Shown in pieces: positions 759-34,621 of a stretch of DNA of 64,000 nucleotides. This DNA is from Patescibacteria group bacterium. Its GTDB lineage: Bacteria; Patescibacteriota; Patescibacteriia; UBA9934. The stretch covers positions 65,629 through 129,628 of the forward strand of contig JAGORL010000002.1 of NCBI GenBank assembly GCA_018062825.1, read 5' to 3'. The stretch's first letter is position 1. Each line of letters begins with the position of its first letter. The notes beneath the pieces are model-generated. The model did not search any database. It was not told the DNA's origin and saw only the letters and a program-made list of their open reading frames with translations. A program made the position numbers and the translations under genes.

Positions 759-2477
759 TTATTTACAACCATTTATCGGATCGTACTCAATATCTGCCCA
801 CTGAAGTCCGGAAAGCTCTTGTGTAGGACTCCTGAAAAGCGCATAGACCCGCTTCATACCCGCCCCCTCAGTGAGCATCCAAGATCGTTCCTGTCTTGGC
901 GCAGTAAAGACGTCAAACCTCTCTCCAGTAAAACTCTCATCATGGCCAATAACAACCCGATTAGCGTTATATCCCTCAAGCTGCAAGGATACGTCACGTG
1001 ACGTGGTACAAGAAGCGCCCTCATTGATCATGATATCTACACTGCGTGGGAAGATGTAATTACGACCACCACGCGCAGCAGAAATCTTGCGCAAGAATAG
1101 GATCCATACTGCACCGCGTGTTGCGCCACCGTCATCGTCACCACGCGCAGAAACCATAATGTCCGGCTCGCCATCGCCATTCAAATCACCCAAAGAAGCA
1201 ACACCAGTTGAACCAAACACATCAACGTTATCAAGTGGACCTGCAAAATTACCCTCTGTTGAGCTCACTTTTTTATAACTCTGAACTGAACCGTCCGTAT
1301 TCAAATAGATCGTGTAATAAGCGCCACGCGCATCTCCACCATCATCATCACTATTCACCCCAACAAGAAGATCCGAAATGCCGTCTGCATTAAAATCCGT
1401 TGAGCCATCAACAAATGTACCAAAGCCATCATTTGCATCAAGAAGCCCGGTGAAATTAGGGGTTGTACCTGAAACCTTAGCTTCACTCACAACCGTGCCG
1501 TCAGAGTTCATGAATAAAATGTAAACCGCGCCGGCAAAGCTAGCTCCATCACTATCAGAAAACGCACCCACCACAATGTCATCAAAACCATTACCATCAA
1601 GATCCGCAATGCGGGACACAGAACTACCAAAAGCATCTGAGTTATCAAGGGTTGCCAGAAAATTTCCAGAAAGATCGCTGATCTTATCAAAATCAGAAAC
1701 CGTACCATCCGTATTCAGGTGCAGTATCCATACAGCGCCGCGAGCGTTACCGCCATCATCATCCGAGTTAGCGCAAACAACCAAATCATCAAGACCATCA
1801 CTATTAAAATCATCTACCCGCGCCACACAATTGCCGAATTGATCACCATTATCTAAAACCCCTAAAAATCCCCCCGCGGTATCGCTGATTTTTTGTTCAT
1901 CCTTCACGGTGCCGTCCGCATTTAAAAACAGAATATAAACAGCTCCACGATTTGATCCACCGTCATCATTACCGCGCTCACCAACTGCAATATCAGGGAT
2001 ATCATCCCCATCAAGATCCCCTAACGCTGCAACAGATACTCCAAAAGCATCGGCGCTATCGATCGGACCAGTAAAACCGCCCACGGTAGCACTAATCTTC
2101 TGAACATCCTTCACCGTGCCATTCGTGTTAAGAAAAAGAATATAAACAGCTCCAAAATCAGTTCCACCGTCGTCATCGGCAAATGCGCCAACAACAACAT
2201 CAGTAACGCCGTCGCCATCAACGTCACCAATATTTGCAACACCGGAACCAAACTGATCACCATCACCCAAGTATCCAGAAAAACCACCTTCAGTATCGCT
2301 AATCTTTTGAAATGATCCAACCGTGCCGTCGGTACGAGAAATAACCTCGGTTGCCATGAGAAGAAAGAGGAGTGCAAGAATAACAGAACCAAACGCCAAA
2401 AACGGCATGGACTTAATCAGTGGTCGGTAAAAATGGTGCTTAGTAAAATGAACTTTACTCATATGTTTTACCTGCAA
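759..2477 (-). CDS. Membrane-anchored FG-GAP repeat beta-propeller protein (paralog 1)
   Basis: N-terminal hydrophobic anchor. About 7 repeats of the pattern FG.SVA.GDLDGDG.DD.VVGA..DDDGG...GAVYILFLN.DGTV, typical of FG-GAP/integrin-alpha-like repeats. C-terminal ~100 aa Cys-containing domain. Confidence 0.7.
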   Translation of the reverse strand: MQVKHMSKVHFTKHHFYRPLIKSMPFLAFGSVILALLFLLMATEVISRTDGTVGSFQKISDTEGGFSGYLGDGDQFGSGVANIGDVDGDGVTDVVVGAFADDDGGTDFGAVYILFLNTNGTVKDVQKISATVGGFTGPIDSADAFGVSVAALGDLDGDDIPDIAVGERGNDDGGSNRGAVYILFLNADGTVKDEQKISDTAGGFLGVLDNGDQFGNCVARVDDFNSDGLDDLVVCANSDDDGGNARGAVWILHLNTDGTVSDFDKISDLSGNFLATLDNSDAFGSSVSRIADLDGNGFDDIVVGAFSDSDGASFAGAVYILFMNSDGTVVSEAKVSGTTPNFTGLLDANDGFGTFVDGSTDFNADGISDLLVGVNSDDDGGDARGAYYTIYLNTDGSVQSYKKVSSTEGNFAGPLDNVDVFGSTGVASLGDLNGDGEPDIMVSARGDDDGGATRGAVWILFLRKISAARGGRNYIFPRSVDIMINEGASCTTSRDVSLQLEGYNANRVVIGHDESFTGERFDVFTAPRQERSWMLTEGAGMKRVYALFRSPTQELSGLQWADIEYDPINGCK

Positions 2478-10886: not shown

Positions 10887-12392
10887 ATGATTCATCGCTT
10901 TATTTTGCGAACAACAGCGATCGCGAGTGCATTCAGCATCGCCTTTGCCCCGGTTGCTGGCTTTGCCAAAGAACCATTCACCACACCAATTTTAATCGCC
11001 CTTGATGGCGTTGAAAGCGGCACAATCACAACACAGTTAAGCTTTGCACTTGAACCGCTTGAAAGCGACGTAAAACCACTAATGGGTCTTGAGGACAGCT
11101 CGCTCTTTGCGGCTGCCGGTCTCTTTCAGCATGCCGAGCACTTAATAGCAGATGAAGTCGCTACGAACATGATGGTCACCGAGGATAACTGGACCTGGGA
11201 AGAAGACGACAGCTGGGACACCACTGATTGGTCAGAGGATTCGTGGAGTGATGATGAGTATCTCTACACCTACGAGGAGCCAAGCATTGCTGAGGAGCTT
11301 GCAAACACCAACCTCACCCTCACCACTAAGCAAAATTTCAACATCAATGCGAGTGATTATAGCGACGGTTCATTTGATGTAAGCTTAGAGTTTCTTGATG
11401 AACAGATCGCGCTCTCCGGCAAAACCGCTACTCGTAACGGCGCTAGCTATCTTCAGTTCACAAACATTGCCGTTCCTGAGGTAACATCAGCCGATCTCCC
11501 AGAAGGCGCAATTGGCGATTGGTTTGAAGTAACCATGCCCGAGCAGACCAAAACCATCTTTGAACCAGAGGATGGGCAAAGCTCTGATCTTCTTGAAGAT
11601 CCAACTCAGCTACTCGCTGGTCTAAATGATATTCCAACACAAGTAACAGACATCGTTGATGATCTTGCTCGCATTAACGCCCTGCAGGTCACAAGCAAAC
11701 ACCGCACAATCGTCAGTGGCAAACGCGTTACCGTGTACAACCTAAACGTTGACGGCGAGAAGGCAGCCGCAATAGCACCCGAGGATCTAGCGGAAATCGC
11801 ACCTCTTTTAGGCAACACCACGCTCAAACTCACCGTTCAGGAGAACACCAACATTCCAATCGCCTTTGACTTCGCGATTCGCGTCGCTCTCTCGGATATT
11901 GATGAAGTGAGTACTGGTCAACAAGTAGCGCTTCGTGGCTCGATAACGCTCACCGATATCGGTCGCAACTTCAGCTACGAAACCATAAAAGACGCTCGTC
12001 CGCTTTCAGACCTTGATGAGAGCACAGTTGTTGCCGAGCCGCTTGTTGAGCAGCAGTACGCCTACGTCAGCGATCTGCAATGGGCACTTGATACCTACTA
12101 CTATCACTACGGCTACTACCCAGAGACACTTAGCGACCTTCTCATCTCTCCAATCCCAACCGACTGGTCAGAAGACATGATCGTGTACTTTGTACCAAAT
12201 GATGTTTTCACCAACCAACCATATGAGTACGAAAAACTGGAGGAAGACTTCGCGCTCACGTACTGGGTAGAGCTCCAGGATGACTCCTCATGGTCCTACA
12301 CCTTCGTAGACGGTCAGAACACCGCCACCGCCTACACCATCTCCGAGGAAAGCGATGCCGCCTGGTACGACAGCTGGGAAGAATGGGAGTAA
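10887..12392 (+). CDS. Secreted acidic Trp/Asp-rich protein of unknown function
   Basis: Signal peptide MIHRFILRTTAIASAFSIAFAPVAGFA. Very acidic, with W-D/E-rich stretches (WTWEEDDSWDTTDWSEDSWSDDEY; AAWYDSWEEWE). C-terminal motif LQWALDTYYYHYGYYPETLSDLL resembles the pilin/pseudopilin ALE.Y..DNG.YP motif. Confidence 0.4.
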   Translation: MIHRFILRTTAIASAFSIAFAPVAGFAKEPFTTPILIALDGVESGTITTQLSFALEPLESDVKPLMGLEDSSLFAAAGLFQHAEHLIADEVATNMMVTEDNWTWEEDDSWDTTDWSEDSWSDDEYLYTYEEPSIAEELANTNLTLTTKQNFNINASDYSDGSFDVSLEFLDEQIALSGKTATRNGASYLQFTNIAVPEVTSADLPEGAIGDWFEVTMPEQTKTIFEPEDGQSSDLLEDPTQLLAGLNDIPTQVTDIVDDLARINALQVTSKHRTIVSGKRVTVYNLNVDGEKAAAIAPEDLAEIAPLLGNTTLKLTVQENTNIPIAFDFAIRVALSDIDEVSTGQQVALRGSITLTDIGRNFSYETIKDARPLSDLDESTVVAEPLVEQQYAYVSDLQWALDTYYYHYGYYPETLSDLLISPIPTDWSEDMIVYFVPNDVFTNQPYEYEKLEEDFALTYWVELQDDSSWSYTFVDGQNTATAYTISEESDAAWYDSWEEWE

Positions 12393-13687: not shown

Positions 13688-15183
13688 CTAGAGAACAAAC
13701 CCCAATGCCACCAAAAAAAGTACGGTAATCATCCAGGCCGTCACCATGCCCCACACGAAAATCATCCACCAATCAGAACGCGTAGCGGACACCGCCTGAC
13801 GATCAACACTGTCACGGATATCTCGTGGATCAAAGATACTTGGCTGCAAACGCTTCCCAGATAAAATCTGCGCAATACGGTACCCACCATACACCGACGG
13901 CAAAATACCAACACCATTGCACCCAAGGTTATAGAGCAATACGGGATTACAGGGCTCAGTGCCAACACACCGTATACCGTTTGGTGTATAGCCCATGAGG
14001 CCATGCCATAGATGCGTAAACGTTAACCTACGCCCAGAGTGAGCATACGTTGCTCGTGTGAACTGACGGATCATTTTTTCGGACTCTTTAGGGTAAGGAT
14101 GAGCGCGTGAATAAGCGTTAGTATCATCCATAAGCGCCTCAGGACCACCAATACAAACTAAACTCTGATCAGACCCATGCGGACGACGAGTAATGTAGTA
14201 GTAAGGATCAGCGTCATAGGCACCACTCATCTCTTCAACATCTTTAGGCAAATAACTAATAGCCGTCGGCGCCATCTGCGGCTTCTCAATAAATGCCGCC
14301 ATGTAACCAACTGATCCACGTACTAAATGGTGGAACCAGGCATCAATCCTTGCCCCAGCATGATTCTCAATATGAAACTTCTCAAAACCATTTGTACATA
14401 AAACAACTCGTGATGCAGTAACCTTGTGCTTTTTTGTTTTTAACTCAGCACCCTTAGCAAAAAGATGAACTCGCTCAACAAATGCTTGCTCAGCAACTGC
14501 AAAGCGCTGCGCATAACGCGCAAGCAACTTCTCAAGCACCTCATAACAAAAGAGTGCGCTATTCATACAACCCTTTTTAGCAACGATCGTAGCAACGTAT
14601 GAGGCATCGCTCGTTTGCAGGTATGACAAGATCTTTTTGTGCGGAGCCAGCTTATAATATTTTCTCAACGGTCGCGGAACATCTTTTCGCTTAGCATACG
14701 ATCGAGAAACAAAAATCTTCTCAATCGGCAAACCCGCTTTATCTCGTGCTTCATTGTCGTATAAATGAGAAAGAAGCTCGTGAAAATCAGCACATCCCGC
14801 ATAACCATCAAAAGTCCAAAGCGGTGTTTCGAGCCCCAAATCCTTTTGAATATCTTCAAGTAAATCCCAAGATGATTCAATGGATCGCTGACCTTCAGCT
14901 GCCATCACTGCCCCAAACTCTTGAACAATATCAGCAAACGGGCGCTCAAAATAACTCACCAATTGCCCCGCATTGTGCCCAGTAGCTCCATGAGCAATGC
15001 GATCACCCTCAAGAAGCACAATCGACTTCTTAGTTTTCTTCAACAAAAAATACGCCGTCATCACTCCCGCGATGCCAGCGCCAACAATCACAACATCAGC
15101 GTGCAGATCCCGATCAAACGGAAAGAGCGTTCGCTTTTTAGTGAGCTGCTCAAGCCAAGGCGATCGAAGGGCAACGTTTGGCA
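13688..15183 (-). CDS. FAD-dependent oxidoreductase (DAO-like) with C-terminal TM anchor
   Basis: ADVVIVGAGIAGVMTAYFL...IVLLEGDRIAHGATGHNAGQL is the FAD Rossmann motif. C-terminal hydrophobic tail WWMIFVWGMVTAWMITVLFLVALGFVL. Likely start is the M of MPNVALRS at 15183, inside the longer ORF-track frame. Confidence 0.6.
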
Positions 15184-15222
15184 TACGTAAAATACATGTA
15201 TGCAGTATAACATTGCGTACGC

Positions 15223-16125
15223 TTATCGATACACACGCCGCCTCCCTTTTCCAAGTCCAAGATTCGTATATTTTCGAAACTCGCACCCAATCCCCTCCCA
15301 ATTCTCCGCTGATAAAATAAGTGACTGACCTTGATACGTCACCCCCGTTGCAAATGGCAGTCGAGCTAGCTCAGCCGCAAGTAAAGACGGATCCCGGGAA
15401 ATATTCAGACGCTTCATGGTTGGCAGTGAACCAGGACCAACCGGAAAACGAGCAAACAAATCGATCTTATCCGGATACTGATACGCCACATCAATCAAAA
15501 CCTCGGTCCATAAAAACGCCAGGTTATAACCAAATACTGAAACAACTTCTTCAACTCCGTCGTAAACTGACTTCTTCTGCCACGTCGCAATCAGCTTAGC
15601 CACCCTTGGAATGACGCCAGGCAAATATCGTGACAAAAATGCTTCACGCGTCGGTGTGGCACTTCTTTGAATAACACTAATAGGAAACACGTACGGCACT
15701 CCATACTTTGGCCGTGGCAAAGCATCTAATCGCTCACGCCAGGCATCATTCTCCTTCTCATCAAATGACAACAGACCAATCGCCGTAAGCGTCTCCGGCC
15801 GCGCCATTAACCGACACGCAAACATATTCAAAAGCCACAACGGGAAATCGTCGCGTAGCGGGTTCAGCATGGCATGAAACGCCATCGTTTGCCGATCAAA
15901 CTCCCGAAAAATATTACAAAACCGATACTGAGACAAAATAGGATCAAGCGAATATGGAGCTTGCTCACCCTGAACCTTGCGCTCCCACATGCGCAACCGC
16001 TCCTGCGTAAACTCTTCAATCTGCTTTAGAACGAAAGCATCAACACTCGGCAAAGTACCAGCCGGTCGACTCGTGTGTAACGACAAGTGTCGATAGAGCT
16101 GAGCAATATTATCGGGAATCTCCAT
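15223..16125 (-). CDS. Conserved hypothetical protein (300 aa), no domain recognised
   Basis: Soluble, no TM. The only basis for a nucleotide-metabolism role is its position between a deaminase-fold gene and a MazG-like gene. Confidence 0.3.
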   Translation of the reverse strand: MEIPDNIAQLYRHLSLHTSRPAGTLPSVDAFVLKQIEEFTQERLRMWERKVQGEQAPYSLDPILSQYRFCNIFREFDRQTMAFHAMLNPLRDDFPLWLLNMFACRLMARPETLTAIGLLSFDEKENDAWRERLDALPRPKYGVPYVFPISVIQRSATPTREAFLSRYLPGVIPRVAKLIATWQKKSVYDGVEEVVSVFGYNLAFLWTEVLIDVAYQYPDKIDLFARFPVGPGSLPTMKRLNISRDPSLLAAELARLPFATGVTYQGQSLILSAENWEGIGCEFRKYTNLGLGKGRRRVYR

Positions 16126-16128
16126 ACG

Positions 16129-16617
16129 TTACACCTCATGTCGATATTCATAAGAAACGCGATTGTATTCCTGCGTTTCGTACGCCGCTAAACCAGCCTC
16201 CTGCCATAAAACAAACGTCGCAATGCCGCTATCAAGCGCCAACCTACTACACACCGTGCAAAACGGCTGCCCAGCTTTCAAAATCCCTCCCCCAGCATCA
16301 ACGCGCGTAAAATAAAGCGTTGACCCCGCAATGCGATCCGAGTGACGAGTAAGCGCATCCATGATCGCCCGCCATTCAGCATGAATGCAGCACGTCTTGT
16401 CATACCGCGGCTTACCAGGAACAAAATCATCCCCACACATACGATTCTCCTCACTATCAAGCGCCGGCGCATTGTAGCCAAGACCGATCGCCTTGCCCCC
16501 ACTCACGATCACCGTGCCGCATTTTGCGCGCGCACAAAGAGCCAATTCAGCCTGCTCAGCAGCCTGATACATCCAAAATTTCGCCTGCTCCTCAAAATCA
16601 CCAGAAAGAAAAACCAT
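16129..16617 (-). CDS. CMP/dCMP deaminase zinc-binding family protein (dCMP deaminase/TadA-like)
   Basis: CGTVIVSGGKAIGLGYN, CCIHAEWRAI (the H(A/C)E zinc ligand motif) and PFCTVCSRLALDSGI (the PCxxC zinc ligands). Confidence 0.65.
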   Translation of the reverse strand: MVFLSGDFEEQAKFWMYQAAEQAELALCARAKCGTVIVSGGKAIGLGYNAPALDSEENRMCGDDFVPGKPRYDKTCCIHAEWRAIMDALTRHSDRIAGSTLYFTRVDAGGGILKAGQPFCTVCSRLALDSGIATFVLWQEAGLAAYETQEYNRVSYEYRHEV

Positions 16618-16678
16618 AGAACAAACGCCAAAGAAAAGTCATCTACAGGAGTATAACGTGCCAGCTATAAAATCGCTA

Positions 16679-16690
16679 TATTGCGCAATA
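16679..16690. promoter_or_regulatory. Perfect 12-bp palindrome TATTGCGCAATA in the divergent promoter region between the deaminase and MazG-like genes
   Basis: Seen directly. Also flanked by direct repeats atcgct...agatcgct. Confidence 0.4.
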
Positions 16691-16727
16691 AAGATCGCTA
16701 AATTATAGTAGTTGCATAAACTACTCT

Positions 16728-17288
16728 ATGGATGAGAAAAACGTCATCGCGCTTCTCCAATGGGCGCAGCTCCAGCACGATGCCAAGTATCATCAAGATA
16801 TTCACCACCTGAGCACACAGCAAAAATTCAAGCACTTCACACTGCACCTTGCCAAGTACGCAGGAAAATTTGCAGAATTAAGAGAAAACGATCACGAACA
16901 GTTTCAAAAAACACTCGTGGATACCTGCATCATTAGCATCGCCCTCGCAAACGCCTTCAATGTGAATATTGCAAGAAGGCTAAATATTGAGCATGCTCAA
17001 TCACTAACAGATGTCAGTAAAAGTATCGCCAACACTCAAAATAGTGAAGAAGCTCGACCGTTCCCACTACAGCTCACCATACTTGTTGGTAAGCTTGCTA
17101 AAAACTGCGAGTCGCTTGATCACCTTGAAAATTTTCCATTCCGAGAACAGGCTGAAAGCGTGAGCTTAGAGGTATTTATAGCGACCATACACGAAGCATC
17201 AAGAAAAGGTCTCGATCTACATGAAGCGATCACTAAACGGCTAACTGAGGTAGAAAAGAAATACATTTTTCACAATTTTCTCAAATAG
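16728..17288 (+). CDS. MazG-like all-alpha nucleoside triphosphate pyrophosphohydrolase (tentative)
   Basis: Two helical MazG-like repeats: FTLHLAKYAGKFAE...VDTCIISIALANAFNVNI and SLEVFIATIHEASRKGLDLHEAITKRLTEVEKKY (the MazG pattern L...A...GIDLEEA...K..R). Confidence 0.45.
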   Translation: MDEKNVIALLQWAQLQHDAKYHQDIHHLSTQQKFKHFTLHLAKYAGKFAELRENDHEQFQKTLVDTCIISIALANAFNVNIARRLNIEHAQSLTDVSKSIANTQNSEEARPFPLQLTILVGKLAKNCESLDHLENFPFREQAESVSLEVFIATIHEASRKGLDLHEAITKRLTEVEKKYIFHNFLK

Positions 17289-17326
17289 AACTAAAAACAC
17301 CAGCCAAATGGCTGGTGTTTTTTTTA

Positions 17327-34216: not shown

Positions 34217-34621
34217 ATGAACTATTGGCTTATCAAAACTGAACCCTCAACCTACAGCTGGAGCGATCTTGTCAGTGATAAAGAAACCGAATGGACCGGC
34301 ATACGCAACTATCTAGCACGCAACAATTTACGAGCTATGAAAAACGGCGACCTCGCCTTTGTCTACCATTCATTAACAGACAAAGCGATCGTTGGCGTTG
34401 CTAAGGTAGTTCGAGAAGCAATTCCAGATAGCACAGCAACAGACGGCGACTGGAGCATGGTGCGCTTCAAAGCTGAACATGAACTCCCCCACCCGATAAC
34501 CCTTGAGAGCGCAAAGAAAGATCCTAACCTAAAAGACATGACACTTCTTAAAAGCTCACGTCTTTCAGTGCAACCAGTCACGCAAGCACAGTGGGAGCAT
34601 ATAATGAGTAAAACTTCCTAA
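34217..34621 (+). CDS. EVE (PUA-like) domain protein
   Basis: MNYWLIKTEPSTYSWSDL...WTGIRNYLARNNLRAMKNGDLAFVYHS is the canonical EVE N-terminal signature. Confidence 0.7.
   Translation: MNYWLIKTEPSTYSWSDLVSDKETEWTGIRNYLARNNLRAMKNGDLAFVYHSLTDKAIVGVAKVVREAIPDSTATDGDWSMVRFKAEHELPHPITLESAKKDPNLKDMTLLKSSRLSVQPVTQAQWEHIMSKTS

What the first reader, a model, noticed from the sequence alone, without database searches (positions are those of the whole stretch)
15223..17288. Nucleotide-metabolism trio: dCMP-deaminase-like, unknown 300-aa protein, divergent MazG-like NTP pyrophosphohydrolase around a perfect 12-bp palindrome
A deaminase-fold enzyme (HAE/PCxxC zinc motifs) sits next to a conserved 300-aa protein without a recognisable motif. 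Divergently transcribed is a MazG-type all-alpha NTP pyrophosphohydrolase. The shared promoter region carries the perfect palindrome TATTGCGCAATA. This combination (deaminase, a candidate transferase/kinase-like partner, and NTP house-cleaning) resembles modules used for non-canonical nucleotide or DNA-base modification or nucleotide-pool sanitation, often phage-derived. The EVE (modified-base reader) gene at 34217 is elsewhere in the window. I could not assign the 300-aa protein.
Basis: inference. Interest (0 to 1): 0.55.

Follow-up and report, generated by a model that had tools for sequence, protein, structure and literature searches.

The report
Uracil-base enzyme with deaminase partners
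Three neighbouring genes in a Patescibacteria (tiny, uncultured bacteria) genome form a real, recurring module that joins a cytosine-nucleotide deaminase and a new helical protein to an uncharacterised relative of the phage enzymes that decorate thymine in DNA; what it does chemically is still unknown.

Summary
The 300-aa protein is not motif-less. It is a stand-alone member of Pfam PF18723 (HMUDK_hel), the uncharacterised paralogue of the phage amino-acid:DNA transferases. Its model is confident (pLDDT 95.5) and an almost invariant Cys-Glu pair aligns with the transferases' catalytic Cys.

The 162-aa protein is a Zn deaminase of dCMP-deaminase type. The 186-aa protein belongs to an undescribed family whose MazG likeness is only marginal.

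The exact trio is not conserved in Patescibacteria, but the functional triad is. In each of the 21 metagenomic loci with enough downstream sequence (and in L047), a homologue of the 186-aa protein is followed by a dCTP-deaminase-fold gene and an HMUDK_hel gene. One variant adds TIR and Nmad2, like a five-gene E. coli unit in the DefensePredictor study.

Within Patescibacteria the 300-aa gene recurs beside Dcd, dCMP deaminase, dUTPase, ThyA and DHFR.

Best reading: a module linked to dU/dT metabolism, whose HMUDK_hel enzyme works on a uracil-type base, probably in DNA.

The palindrome is no more than chance predicts for the window as a whole.

This is a new variant of a known kind, of moderate to high interest.

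The parts
15223..16125 (-). p300: stand-alone HMUDK_hel (PF18723) protein. All-alpha fold resembling a base-flipping DNA glycosylase or transferase. Cys281-Glu282 is almost invariant; Glu277 lies four residues before the Cys.
   Evidence: Pfam hit. More than 585 homologues. AF2 pLDDT 95.5. BFVD and PDB fold matches. Superfamily conservation. Profile alignment to aGPT-Pplase2.
16129..16617 (-). Zn-dependent CDA-fold deaminase of dCMP-deaminase type (HAE ... PxCxxC). Its stop codon lies 3 nt before the p300 start, so the two genes are probably co-transcribed.
   Evidence: PF00383, 35.9 bits. phrog_174 dCMP deaminase, 6e-14. 645 Patescibacterial homologues at about 60% identity. The same tight pair occurs in L145.
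16618..16727 (.). Divergent 110-bp intergenic region (GC 0.355). It holds the perfect palindrome 16679-16690 inside an 18-nt imperfect inverted repeat (16665-16682 / 16691-16708). This is a candidate shared operator or promoter.
   Evidence: No sigma-70 consensus promoter was found.
16728..17288 (+). p186: member of an undescribed all-helical family (phrog_19333). Invariant residues are Q11, H17, D24, H36, D65, N75, K125, E128, D131 and H132. It is remotely MazG-like at best.
   Evidence: Always next to DCD + HMUDK_hel in other bacteria.
17293..17326 (+). Strong hairpin followed by a T-run (-21 kcal/mol) that ends the p186 transcription unit. It lies between the convergent p186 and S9-peptidase genes.
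   Evidence: ViennaRNA fold and the sequence itself.
13688..15184 (-). DAO-family FAD oxidoreductase (498 aa from the annotated start, with a C-terminal hydrophobic segment), 38 nt downstream of p300. It may be co-transcribed; its membership in the module is uncertain.
   Evidence: PF01266, 3.8e-29. Gene call. p300-DAO synteny is kept in L042 (82% identity). Absent beside p300 in 41 other loci.

Best explanation
The locus is a module linked to pyrimidine deoxynucleotide and uracil-base metabolism. It is built around a resident Patescibacterial gene pair, with an extra partner transcribed divergently.

Shown:
- p300 belongs to the HMUDK_hel family. This is the uncharacterised paralogue that sits beside, or is fused to, the 5-hmdU DNA kinase in thymidine-hypermodifying phages.
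- p300 is tightly coupled to a Zn deaminase of dCMP-deaminase type.
- In other bacteria, p186 homologues are always followed by a dCTP-deaminase-fold gene and an HMUDK_hel gene.
- Patescibacterial p300 genes recur in dUMP/dTMP-synthesis operons.

Inferred:
- The deaminase, with p186 acting as a dNTP-handling enzyme (probably a pyrophosphohydrolase), converts dC nucleotides into dU nucleotides. The route could be dCTP to dCMP to dUMP here, or dCTP to dUTP to dUMP where the deaminase has the DCD fold.
- p300 flips a uracil-type base (U, 5-hmU or a C5 derivative) out of DNA into a pocket. There Cys281 attacks C6 and Glu277/Glu282 assist, as in the related amino-acid:DNA transferases. The result is chemistry at C5, meaning processing, conversion or removal of the base.
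- In Patescibacteria this looks like a conserved, housekeeping-like function tied to thymidylate supply or uracil avoidance. In other bacteria the same core has been recruited into defence-type clusters.
For: Family and fold:
- PF18723 hit.
- AF2 model, pLDDT 95.5.
- BFVD matches: SP10 5-hmdU DNA kinase E=4e-9, TM-score (query-normalised) 0.69; PhiW-14 and phiRSL1 HMUDK_hel; aGPT-Pplase1 and amino-acid:DNA transferases at about 1e-4.
- The best PDB match is PaMx11 gp46/PUGT.

Active site:
- In 110 superfamily sequences, R43, N71, R74 and D77 are invariant. C281 is 99%, E282 96% and K285 95% conserved.
- hhalign of that profile against 51 aGPT-Pplase2 sequences gives E=9e-5. It aligns C281 with catalytic Cys247, E277 with Glu243 and D212 with D153. 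The residue roles come from PMC11472151 and PMC8989533.

Triad:
- L047 and 33 metagenomic loci; every locus long enough shows p186-like, then DCD, then HMUDK_hel.

Patescibacterial contexts:
- L016: ThyA-p300-x-dCMP deaminase-dUTPase.
- L005: p300, DHFR, dCMP deaminase, dUTPase.
- L012 and L019: Dcd-p300.
- L033: p300-Nmad1-ThyA-DHFR.
- L145: deaminase (75% identity) then p300 (68% identity), 2 nt apart.

DNA as substrate:
- Domain fusions to a D5-type primase-helicase, a PHD finger and a P-loop kinase.
- Phage context beside the DNA kinase.
Against: - No biochemical activity is known for any HMUDK_hel protein. M6 gp55 was dispensable in lysate reconstitution (PMC8989533).
- The alignment to the catalytic Cys rests on a profile match with only 59% probability. 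The Patescibacteria-only profile does not detect aGPT-Pplase2.
- The role of p186 is a guess. It lacks the MazG acidic motifs and could not be modelled.
- Only 5 of 41 Patescibacterial loci (plus the window and L145) show dU/dT-pathway neighbours, and these loci are phylogenetically clustered.
- In the closest relative, L042, the deaminase and p186 are replaced by other genes.
- The window has no ThyA-like hydroxymethylase, P-loop 5-HMUDK or aGPT-Pplase2.
- A substrate among free nucleotides, rather than DNA, cannot be excluded.
Confidence: 0.6

Rival explanations
1. Anti-phage defence module. The deaminase plus p186 deplete dCTP or flood the cell with dU nucleotides on infection. HMUDK_hel acts as sensor or effector on the resulting DNA, as in the defence-type clusters of other bacteria.
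For: - In non-Patescibacterial loci the same triad sits with XRE/ImmA, peptidases, AbiEii and ICE genes.
- Other loci carry ThsB-type TIR + Nmad2.
- The E. coli unit 'NTTI' (TS + adenylate kinase + HMUDK_hel + TIR + Nmad2) appears in the DefensePredictor supplement. That paper lists a 5-hmU kinase domain and a thymidylate synthase among its validated defence domains.
- p186 has homologues in T4-like and jumbo phages.
Against: - The Patescibacterial p300 and deaminase clades are about 60% identical across classes and have housekeeping-type neighbours. This is unlike patchy defence genes.
- There is no TIR, Nmad2 or other effector in the window.
- PADLOC gives nothing above noise.
- The NCBIfam antiphage deaminase model scores 15.8 against a cut-off of 400.
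Confidence: 0.17
2. Nucleotide-pool enzyme. p300 acts on free dUMP, 5-hmdUMP or dTMP-type nucleotides (for example as an N-glycosidase or sanitiser, or in an alternative step of thymidylate metabolism) rather than on DNA.
For: - It is embedded in operons of soluble-nucleotide enzymes: ThyA, DHFR, Dut, Dcd and dCMP deaminase.
- It is partnered with a deaminase and a possible NTP pyrophosphatase.
- It has many invariant Arg and Lys residues that could bind a phosphate.
Against: - The nearest characterised relatives (aGPT-Pplase2/PUGT) bind dsDNA and flip the base (PMC11472151).
- Fusions are to DNA-associated domains.
- In phages it accompanies a kinase that acts on DNA (PMC8989533).
Confidence: 0.15
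3. The genome carries hypermodified thymine. The trio is part of a phage-like pathway that makes 5-hmdU-derived bases in the bacterium's own DNA.
For: - Family membership.
- An FAD oxidoreductase lies directly downstream of p300, reminiscent of PaMx11 gp46-gp47.
- An EVE-domain gene is present in the window.
Against: - No dUMP hydroxymethylase, P-loop 5-HMUDK or aGPT-Pplase2 occurs in 64 kb.
- The DAO protein resembles gp47 only in its FAD-binding motif and has a C-terminal hydrophobic segment.
- The EVE gene is 17 kb away with unrelated neighbours.
Confidence: 0.05
4. Chance neighbourhood. Two unrelated housekeeping genes and a phage-derived orphan happen to be adjacent.
For: - The exact trio is absent from 41 other p300 loci and from the closest relative, L042.
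- The window-type deaminase has variable neighbours elsewhere.
Against: - Outside phages, the rare p186 family was found only next to a dC-nucleotide deaminase and an HMUDK_hel gene. Meeting both again by chance in a genome of about 1000 genes is very unlikely.
- The deaminase-p300 pair, 2-3 nt apart, recurs in L145.
Confidence: 0.03

Closest known systems
Phage HMUDK_hel proteins (PF18723): PaMx11 gp50, the M6-type gp55, PhiW-14 gene 72, and the domain fused in the SP10 gp186 5-hmdU DNA kinase
   Same: Same Pfam family and fold. Same invariant residues, including the C-E-x-x-K-Y motif. Linked to dU-derived nucleotide metabolism: ThyA-like genes and a dCMP deaminase lie in the same phage clusters.
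   Different: The window protein belongs to a separate, tightly conserved Patescibacterial clade that matches only the first 110 of 281 Pfam profile positions. It has no adjacent P-loop 5-HMUDK or aGPT-Pplase2. The phage proteins themselves have no known activity (PMC8989533).
Clade 2 aGPT-Pplase, the amino-acid:DNA transferases (PaMx11 gp46/PUGT, PDB 8z2n; M6 gp51; ViI gp247)
   Same: About 290 aa, all-alpha, two helix bundles, glycosylase-like. It is the best PDB fold match. Profile alignment puts p300 C281 and E277 on the catalytic Cys247 and Glu243.
   Different: No sequence-level membership. The fold match is weak (TM 0.43, E=0.7). The Trp146 and Lys150 positions that hold the amino-acid donor are Phe and Glu in p300. 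No source of the 5-PmdU substrate is encoded nearby.
E. coli five-gene unit 'NTTI' in the DefensePredictor study (thymidylate synthase, adenylate-kinase-like dNMP kinase, HMUDK_hel, TIR, Nmad2)
   Same: An HMUDK_hel gene is combined with enzymes that make or alter pyrimidine deoxynucleotides. Variant B of the p186 clusters (L069, L074) shares HMUDK_hel-TIR-Nmad2 with it.
   Different: The window has no TIR, Nmad2, TS or dNMP kinase. Its nucleotide-supplying genes are a Zn deaminase and p186. The Patescibacterial clade looks vertically inherited.
Phage dUMP-supply pairs and dC-depleting defence deaminases (T4 gp56 dCTPase/dUTPase with Cd dCMP deaminase; dCTP deaminase/AvcD-type defence). From my own knowledge of these systems.
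   Same: A proposed pyrophosphatase plus deaminase route from dCTP to dUMP.
   Different: p186 is not a demonstrable MazG or dUTPase-family member. The deaminase fails the antiphage-deaminase model. No activity has been tested.

Membership tests
[quoted passage not shown] | Sequence match above Pfam's gathering score | tested here: met
   53.4 bits against a cut-off of 25, E=3e-14. Only residues 32-134 match, against profile positions 3-111 of 281. All 120 listed homologues carry PF18723.
[quoted passage not shown] | Full-length fold shared with phage family members | tested here: met
   AF2 pLDDT 95.5. Foldseek on BFVD: SP10 5-hmdU DNA kinase E=4e-9, TM-score (query-normalised) 0.69; PhiW-14, phiRSL1 and Microbacterium phage HMUDK_hel proteins E=6e-8 to 2e-7.
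[quoted passage not shown] | Family-wide conserved residues (F-x-N-x-x-R-x-x-D near the N-terminus, G-P-G, C-E-x-x-K-Y near the C-terminus) | tested here: met
   In 110 sequences, R43, N71, R74 and D77 are 100% conserved. F69 97%, D212 95%, G230/G232 95-98%, C281 99%, E282 96%, K285 95%.
[quoted passage not shown] | Adjacency or fusion to a P-loop 5-hmdU DNA kinase (the context that gave the family its name) | tested here: not met
   No relative of PaMx11 gp49 occurs in the window. None was seen in Patescibacterial neighbourhoods.
aGPT-Pplase clade 2 (amino-acid:DNA transferase) | Sequence membership in the family model | tested here: not met
   No Pfam hit other than PF18723 at E<=0.1. The A2 profile against aGPT-Pplase2 is not significant.
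aGPT-Pplase clade 2 (amino-acid:DNA transferase) | Catalytic Cys with a proximal Glu in the C-terminal helix | tested here: inconclusive
   The broad HMUDK_hel profile against 51 aGPT-Pplase2 sequences aligns C281 with C247 and E277 with E243, at E=9e-5 but only 59% probability. No structural superposition was available.
aGPT-Pplase clade 2 (amino-acid:DNA transferase) | 5-PmdU substrate supplied by a dUMP hydroxymethylase and 5-HMUDK | tested here: not met
   No ThyA-like gene or kinase in 64 kb.
MazG-like all-alpha NTP pyrophosphohydrolase (for the 186-aa protein) | Match above the family threshold | tested here: not met
   PF12643 scores 16.5 bits against a cut-off of 27. PDB 5ie9 scores E=0.018-0.077.
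MazG-like all-alpha NTP pyrophosphohydrolase (for the 186-aa protein) | Acidic metal-binding motifs (ExxE ... ExxD; motif recalled from my knowledge of MazG enzymes) | tested here: not met
   In the 19-sequence alignment the invariant residues are H17, D24, H36, D65, N75, K125, E128, D131 and H132. Only D65 falls in the aligned MazG segment.
MazG-like all-alpha NTP pyrophosphohydrolase (for the 186-aa protein) | Four-helix MazG fold | tested here: inconclusive
   AF2 with 2 sequences gave pLDDT 41. The model is all-helical but unreliable.
dCMP deaminase (CDA superfamily) | CDA-fold domain with H-A-E and P-x-C-x-x-C zinc ligands | tested here: met
   PF00383 scores 35.9 bits against a cut-off of 25. 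H79-A-E81 and C120/C123 are visible in the translation. phrog_174 dCMP deaminase, 6e-14.
dCMP deaminase (CDA superfamily) | Equivalog-level match (ComEB) or demonstrated dCMP specificity | tested here: not met
   TIGR02571 scores 17.9 against a cut-off of 219. PDB dCMP deaminases score only E=0.04-0.5. Substrate specificity cannot be tested with these tools.
HMUDK_hel-TIR-Nmad2 defence unit (E. coli 'NTTI') | TIR effector and Nmad2 genes next to HMUDK_hel | tested here: not met
   No TIR or Nmad2 relative in the window. Both are present in L069 and L074.

The most novel reading that the evidence does not exclude
HMUDK_hel proteins may be thymine-forming or uracil-C5-processing DNA enzymes. Using the conserved Cys, they would convert U, 5-hmU or 5-phosphomethyl-U in DNA (or in nucleotides) into thymine or another product.

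That would identify the enzyme for the step in PhiW-14-type phages by which the remaining hydroxymethyluracil is replaced by thymine. PMC5977210 describes the mechanism of that step as unknown.

It would also reveal a conserved route in Patescibacteria, separate from thymidylate synthase, that acts on the thymine/uracil content of DNA. p186 would be a new dNTP-handling enzyme family feeding that route.
Probability: 0.12. Interest if true: 0.9.

Novelty: new variant of a known kind. Interest (0 to 1): 0.62.

Why it matters
HMUDK_hel is a widespread family. It occurs in phages, in defence islands, in some eukaryote-like PHD fusions, and in a conserved Patescibacterial clade. No activity has been assigned to it.

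This locus, with the comparisons it triggered, gives three independent genomic settings. All three tie the family to enzymes that make dU and dT nucleotides:
- phage hypermodification clusters;
- p186-DCD-HMUDK_hel clusters, some with TIR/Nmad2;
- Patescibacterial dTMP operons.

The work also points to a specific catalytic pair (Cys281/Glu) to mutate. That makes the family's function directly testable.

The locus also defines a new protein family (p186, phrog_19333) with a clear partner set. Finally, it suggests that organisms with minimal genomes keep an extra uracil/thymine-directed enzyme, which bears on how Patescibacteria maintain their DNA with salvaged nucleotides.

Tried and rejected
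- tblastn of the window's deaminase, p186 and DAO against 41 p300 loci found nothing. ORF clustering found no conserved neighbour. This first suggested no co-conservation. A Pfam scan of 138 neighbours and phmmer then revealed different dU/dT-pathway genes next to p300.
With 2 sequences it gave pLDDT 41, so no fold search was run on it.
- The p186 profile against the PDB gave spurious RNase A matches through a Ser/Asn-rich segment.
- p186 against Nmad1/DUF1599 showed no similarity.
- hhalign of the Patescibacteria-only p300 profile against aGPT-Pplase2 was not significant.
- The p300 profile against PDB sequences gave nothing.
- PADLOC gave no meaningful hit for any of seven proteins.
- The hairpin over the p186 start is not significant: -7.7 against -5.5 +/- 2.4 kcal/mol.
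- GC content does not mark p186 as foreign: 0.424 against 0.42-0.52 for its neighbours.
- Phage contexts of p186 homologues (T4-like Acinetobacter phages, jumbo Pseudomonas phages) were uninformative.
- The Iyer et al. 2013 paper that defined these families could not be read.
- The similarity of DAO to PaMx11 gp47 is limited to the FAD-binding motif.
Full report
**1. What is in the sequence**

The three ORFs exist exactly as described:
- 15223-16125(-), 300 aa, called p300 here;
- 16129-16617(-), 162 aa;
- 16728-17288(+), 186 aa, called p186 here.

The deaminase stop codon lies 3 nt before the p300 start. A DAO-family FAD oxidoreductase follows p300 after 38 nt. p186 is transcribed divergently from a 110-bp AT-rich spacer and ends at a strong hairpin with a T-run.

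The window comes from a Patescibacteria-group MAG; p186 is NCBI KBC55_02580. Identical copies of the locus occur on other contigs.

**2. The palindrome**

TATTGCGCAATA occurs once, at 16679-16690. It is 62 nt from the deaminase ATG and 38 nt from the p186 ATG, inside an 18-nt imperfect inverted repeat.

The window has 14 perfect 12-bp palindromes. Shuffles give 14.5 +/- 3.7. Relaxed matches are not enriched either: 7 against 3.6 expected. No sigma-70 consensus promoter was found in the spacer. The palindrome is a reasonable operator candidate only because of where it sits.

**3. The deaminase**

- PF00383 scores above threshold, and it matches PHROG dCMP-deaminase families.
- It carries HAE and PxCxxC.
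- PDB dCMP deaminases are the best matches, but weak ones.
- It fails the ComEB equivalog and antiphage-deaminase models.

It belongs to a Patescibacterial family with 645 detected members at about 60% identity. Elsewhere this family has variable, housekeeping-type neighbours.

**4. The 300-aa protein**

It matches PF18723, HMUDK_hel (53 bits, N-terminal third only), and phrog_2396.

More than 585 homologues were found. The best 120 are about 57-62% identical stand-alone proteins of about 300 aa. They come from Parcubacteria/Paceibacterota, Uhrbacteria and Nomurabacteria. Relatives from Dojkabacteria, Shapirobacteria and Wolfebacteria are 46-52% identical. NCBI names them 'nucleotide kinase domain-containing protein' or 'putative DNA base hypermodification protein'.

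An exhaustive search of 50%-identity representatives found only 20 clusters at E<=1e-30 but 719 at E<=1e-3. Most are 280-300 aa.

The AlphaFold model is excellent (pLDDT 95.5) and all-alpha. Fold matches:
- No PDB sequence relative.
- The best PDB fold match is the PaMx11 gp46 5-PmdU glycinyltransferase (weak: TM 0.43), followed among others by a MutY homologue.
- Among viral models the matches are clear: SP10 5-hmdU DNA kinase (E=4e-9), HMUDK_hel proteins of PhiW-14 and phiRSL1, then aGPT-Pplase1 and amino-acid:DNA transferases.

**5. What the family is**

tblastn finds p300 relatives in 135 phage records. All belong to thymidine-hypermodifying lineages: PaMx11-, M6-, ViI-, PhiW-14-, SP10-like and phiRSL1.

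In PaMx11 the relative is gp50. It lies directly after the P-loop 5-hmdU DNA kinase gp49 and before the ThyA-like gene. In an M6-type phage it occupies the same position. Both are PF18723.

The literature shows that:
- the P-loop proteins are the kinases;
- clade 2 aGPT-Pplases are amino-acid:DNA transferases that use an essential Cys and a nearby Glu;
- M6 gp55 was not needed for the reconstituted reaction (PMC8989533).

So no HMUDK_hel protein has a known activity.

Domain fusions in the superfamily are to a P-loop kinase (AAA_28), a D5-type primase-helicase and a PHD finger. These point to DNA as the substrate.

**6. Active site**

In an alignment of 110 Patescibacterial, other bacterial and phage members:
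- R43, N71, R74 and D77 are invariant;
- F69, D212 and the GPG motif are at least 95% conserved;
- C281, E282 and K285 are 95-99% conserved.

hhalign of this profile against 51 viral aGPT-Pplase2 sequences gives E=9e-5 (probability 59%). It aligns p300 C281 with Cys247, E277 with Glu243, D212 with Asp153 and F204 with Trp146 of PUGT. In the PUGT-DNA structure those residues clamp the flipped base or bind the metal at O4 (PMC11472151).

The low-diversity Patescibacterial profile alone does not reach aGPT-Pplase2. This step is therefore inferred, not shown.

**7. The 186-aa protein**

The word-indexed search found only itself and one 39% relative. It matches phrog_19333, whose function is unknown, and hypothetical proteins of T4-like Acinetobacter phages and jumbo Pseudomonas phages.

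Invariant residues across 19 members are Q11, H17, D24, H36, D65, N75, K125, E128, D131 and H132. This suggests a His/Asp/Glu metal site rather than the MazG acidic motifs.

The MazG evidence is marginal and the model failed.

**8. Is the trio conserved?**

In its literal form, no.
- None of 41 other p300 loci holds a detectable homologue of the window's deaminase, p186 or DAO within 8 kb.
- No single neighbour family is conserved.
- The closest relative (79% p300, 82% DAO, same DUF1801 flank) has other genes in place of the deaminase and p186.

In its functional form, yes.
- The one bacterial homologue of p186 (locus L047) lies in the order 270aa - p186-like - DCD-fold dCTP deaminase - HMUDK_hel.
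- A metagenome scan gave 33 further loci. In every one that is long enough, the p186 homologue is followed by the DCD gene and then HMUDK_hel.
- So a deaminase of a different fold fills the same slot. Replacement by a non-homologous enzyme of the same activity is a standard sign of a functional link.

**9. The larger clusters**

Variant A, in gene order:
- a 123-aa protein
- XRE HTH
- ImmA-type M78 peptidase
- papain-like C1 peptidase
- a 270-aa protein
- p186-like
- DCD
- HMUDK_hel
- a 116-aa protein
- AcpS-type phosphopantetheinyl transferase

The 270-aa protein aligns collinearly with the PaMx11 ThyA-like protein, including the P-C catalytic motif (hhalign E=2e-4).

Variant B, in gene order:
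- p186-like
- DCD
- a small hydrophobic protein
- HMUDK_hel
- ThsB-type TIR
- Nmad2

Variant B resembles the E. coli unit 'NTTI', which consists of thymidylate synthase, adenylate kinase, HMUDK_hel, TIR and Nmad2. NTTI is listed in the DefensePredictor supplement. That paper counts a 5-hmU kinase domain and a thymidylate synthase among its newly validated defence domains (PMC13092281).

**10. Patescibacterial neighbourhoods**

A Pfam scan of 138 genes within two positions of p300 put DCD (3), NUDIX (3), phosphoribosyltransferase (3), thymidylate synthase (2) and dCMP deaminase (2) among the commonest families.

| Locus | Arrangement |
|---|---|
| L016 | ThyA - p300 - small ORF - dCMP deaminase - dUTPase |
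| L005 | p300, DHFR, dCMP deaminase, dUTPase |
| L012 | Dcd - p300, 1-nt gap |
| L019 | Dcd - p300 |
| L033 | p300 - Nmad1/DUF1599 - ThyA - DHFR |

All such genes lie within 1.8 kb of p300, and none lies farther out in 505 kb of flanks.

A deaminase 75% identical to the window's is followed after 2 nt by a p300 homologue (68% identity) on contig L145.

By my rough estimate, about 0.8 of 41 loci would have any of about five pathway genes within 2 kb by chance. Observed are five loci plus the window and L145, in at least four distinct arrangements. The loci are partly related, so the statistics are indicative only.

**11. Interpretation**

Three settings link HMUDK_hel to enzymes that make dUMP, dTMP or 5-hmdUMP: phage clusters, defence-type clusters and Patescibacterial operons.

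The window combines the resident deaminase-p300 pair with p186. Outside phages, p186 was found only with this partner set.

I therefore read the locus as a real module tied to dU/dT metabolism. The deaminase and p186 would supply or adjust dU nucleotides. p300 would be a base-flipping enzyme using a catalytic cysteine on a uracil-type base, most likely in DNA. The exact reaction is unknown.

Alternatives are defence, free-nucleotide sanitation, and own-genome hypermodification. The last is unlikely, because the window has no hydroxymethylase, kinase or transferase.

A speculative but testable idea: HMUDK_hel proteins carry out the step by which the remaining hydroxymethyluracil in PhiW-14 DNA is replaced by thymine. 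The mechanism of that step is described as unknown (PMC5977210).

**12. Verdict**

The 300-aa protein is a member of a known but uncharacterised family. The triad with the new p186 family, and the Patescibacterial link to dTMP operons, are new variants of a known kind of system.

Noticed in passing
L047:2755-9013 and the same region of L053-L081: A conserved co-oriented cluster of about ten genes in GC-rich soil and other metagenome contigs. In order: 123-aa protein, XRE HTH, M78 (ImmA-like) peptidase with an Inhibitor_I42 domain, papain-like C1 peptidase, divergent ThyA-fold 270-aa protein, p186-like, DCD, HMUDK_hel, 116-aa protein, AcpS-type phosphopantetheinyl transferase. In L047 it is flanked by AbiEii and conjugation genes. 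I did not find it described in the papers searched.
   Followed up: partly
L074:5962-10415 and L069:321-4772: A second architecture: p186-like, DCD, a small hydrophobic protein, HMUDK_hel, ThsB-type TIR, Nmad2. It shares HMUDK_hel-TIR-Nmad2 with the E. coli 'NTTI' unit in the DefensePredictor supplement, but p186 + DCD stand in place of thymidylate synthase + dNMP kinase.
   Followed up: partly
L033:1602-4868: In one Patescibacterial genome p300 is followed by a 205-aa protein with two Nmad1/DUF1599 repeats, then bona fide ThyA and DHFR. This places another 'nucleotide modification associated' domain in a housekeeping dTMP operon.
   Followed up: partly
window 13688-15301: The DAO-family FAD oxidoreductase downstream of p300 has a hydrophobic C-terminal segment. 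It stays next to p300 in the closest relative (L042) but not in other Patescibacteria. The longest ORF (537 aa) overlaps the p300 3' end by 79 nt, whereas the annotated gene (498 aa) starts later.
   Followed up: partly
It lies between a YdjM-family membrane protein and a MauE-family protein, with no visible link to the trio.
   Followed up: yes
window 17293-17326: A strong 13-bp hairpin flanked by an A-run and a T-run lies between the convergent p186 and S9-peptidase genes. It could act as a bidirectional terminator.
   Followed up: partly
window 1085-1096: A second perfect palindrome, TCTTGCGCAAGA, shares the 8-bp core TTGCGCAA with the one in the trio's spacer. Its genomic context was not examined.
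   Followed up: no
window 10887-12392: A 501-aa, very acidic, Trp/Asp/Glu-rich protein with an N-terminal signal-like segment has no Pfam match. The adjacent genes include a DUF305 protein.
   Followed up: no
P0203, P0256, P0169 (representative proteins): HMUDK_hel is fused to a PHD finger (probably eukaryotic or giant-virus), to a D5_N/DUF5906 primase-helicase, and to an AAA_28 P-loop kinase. These are useful leads for the family's substrate.
   Followed up: partly
L148:4146-4766: In one Patescibacterial contig the window-type deaminase lies about 600 bp from an HhH-GPD DNA glycosylase gene. This is a single case and may be coincidence.
   Followed up: no
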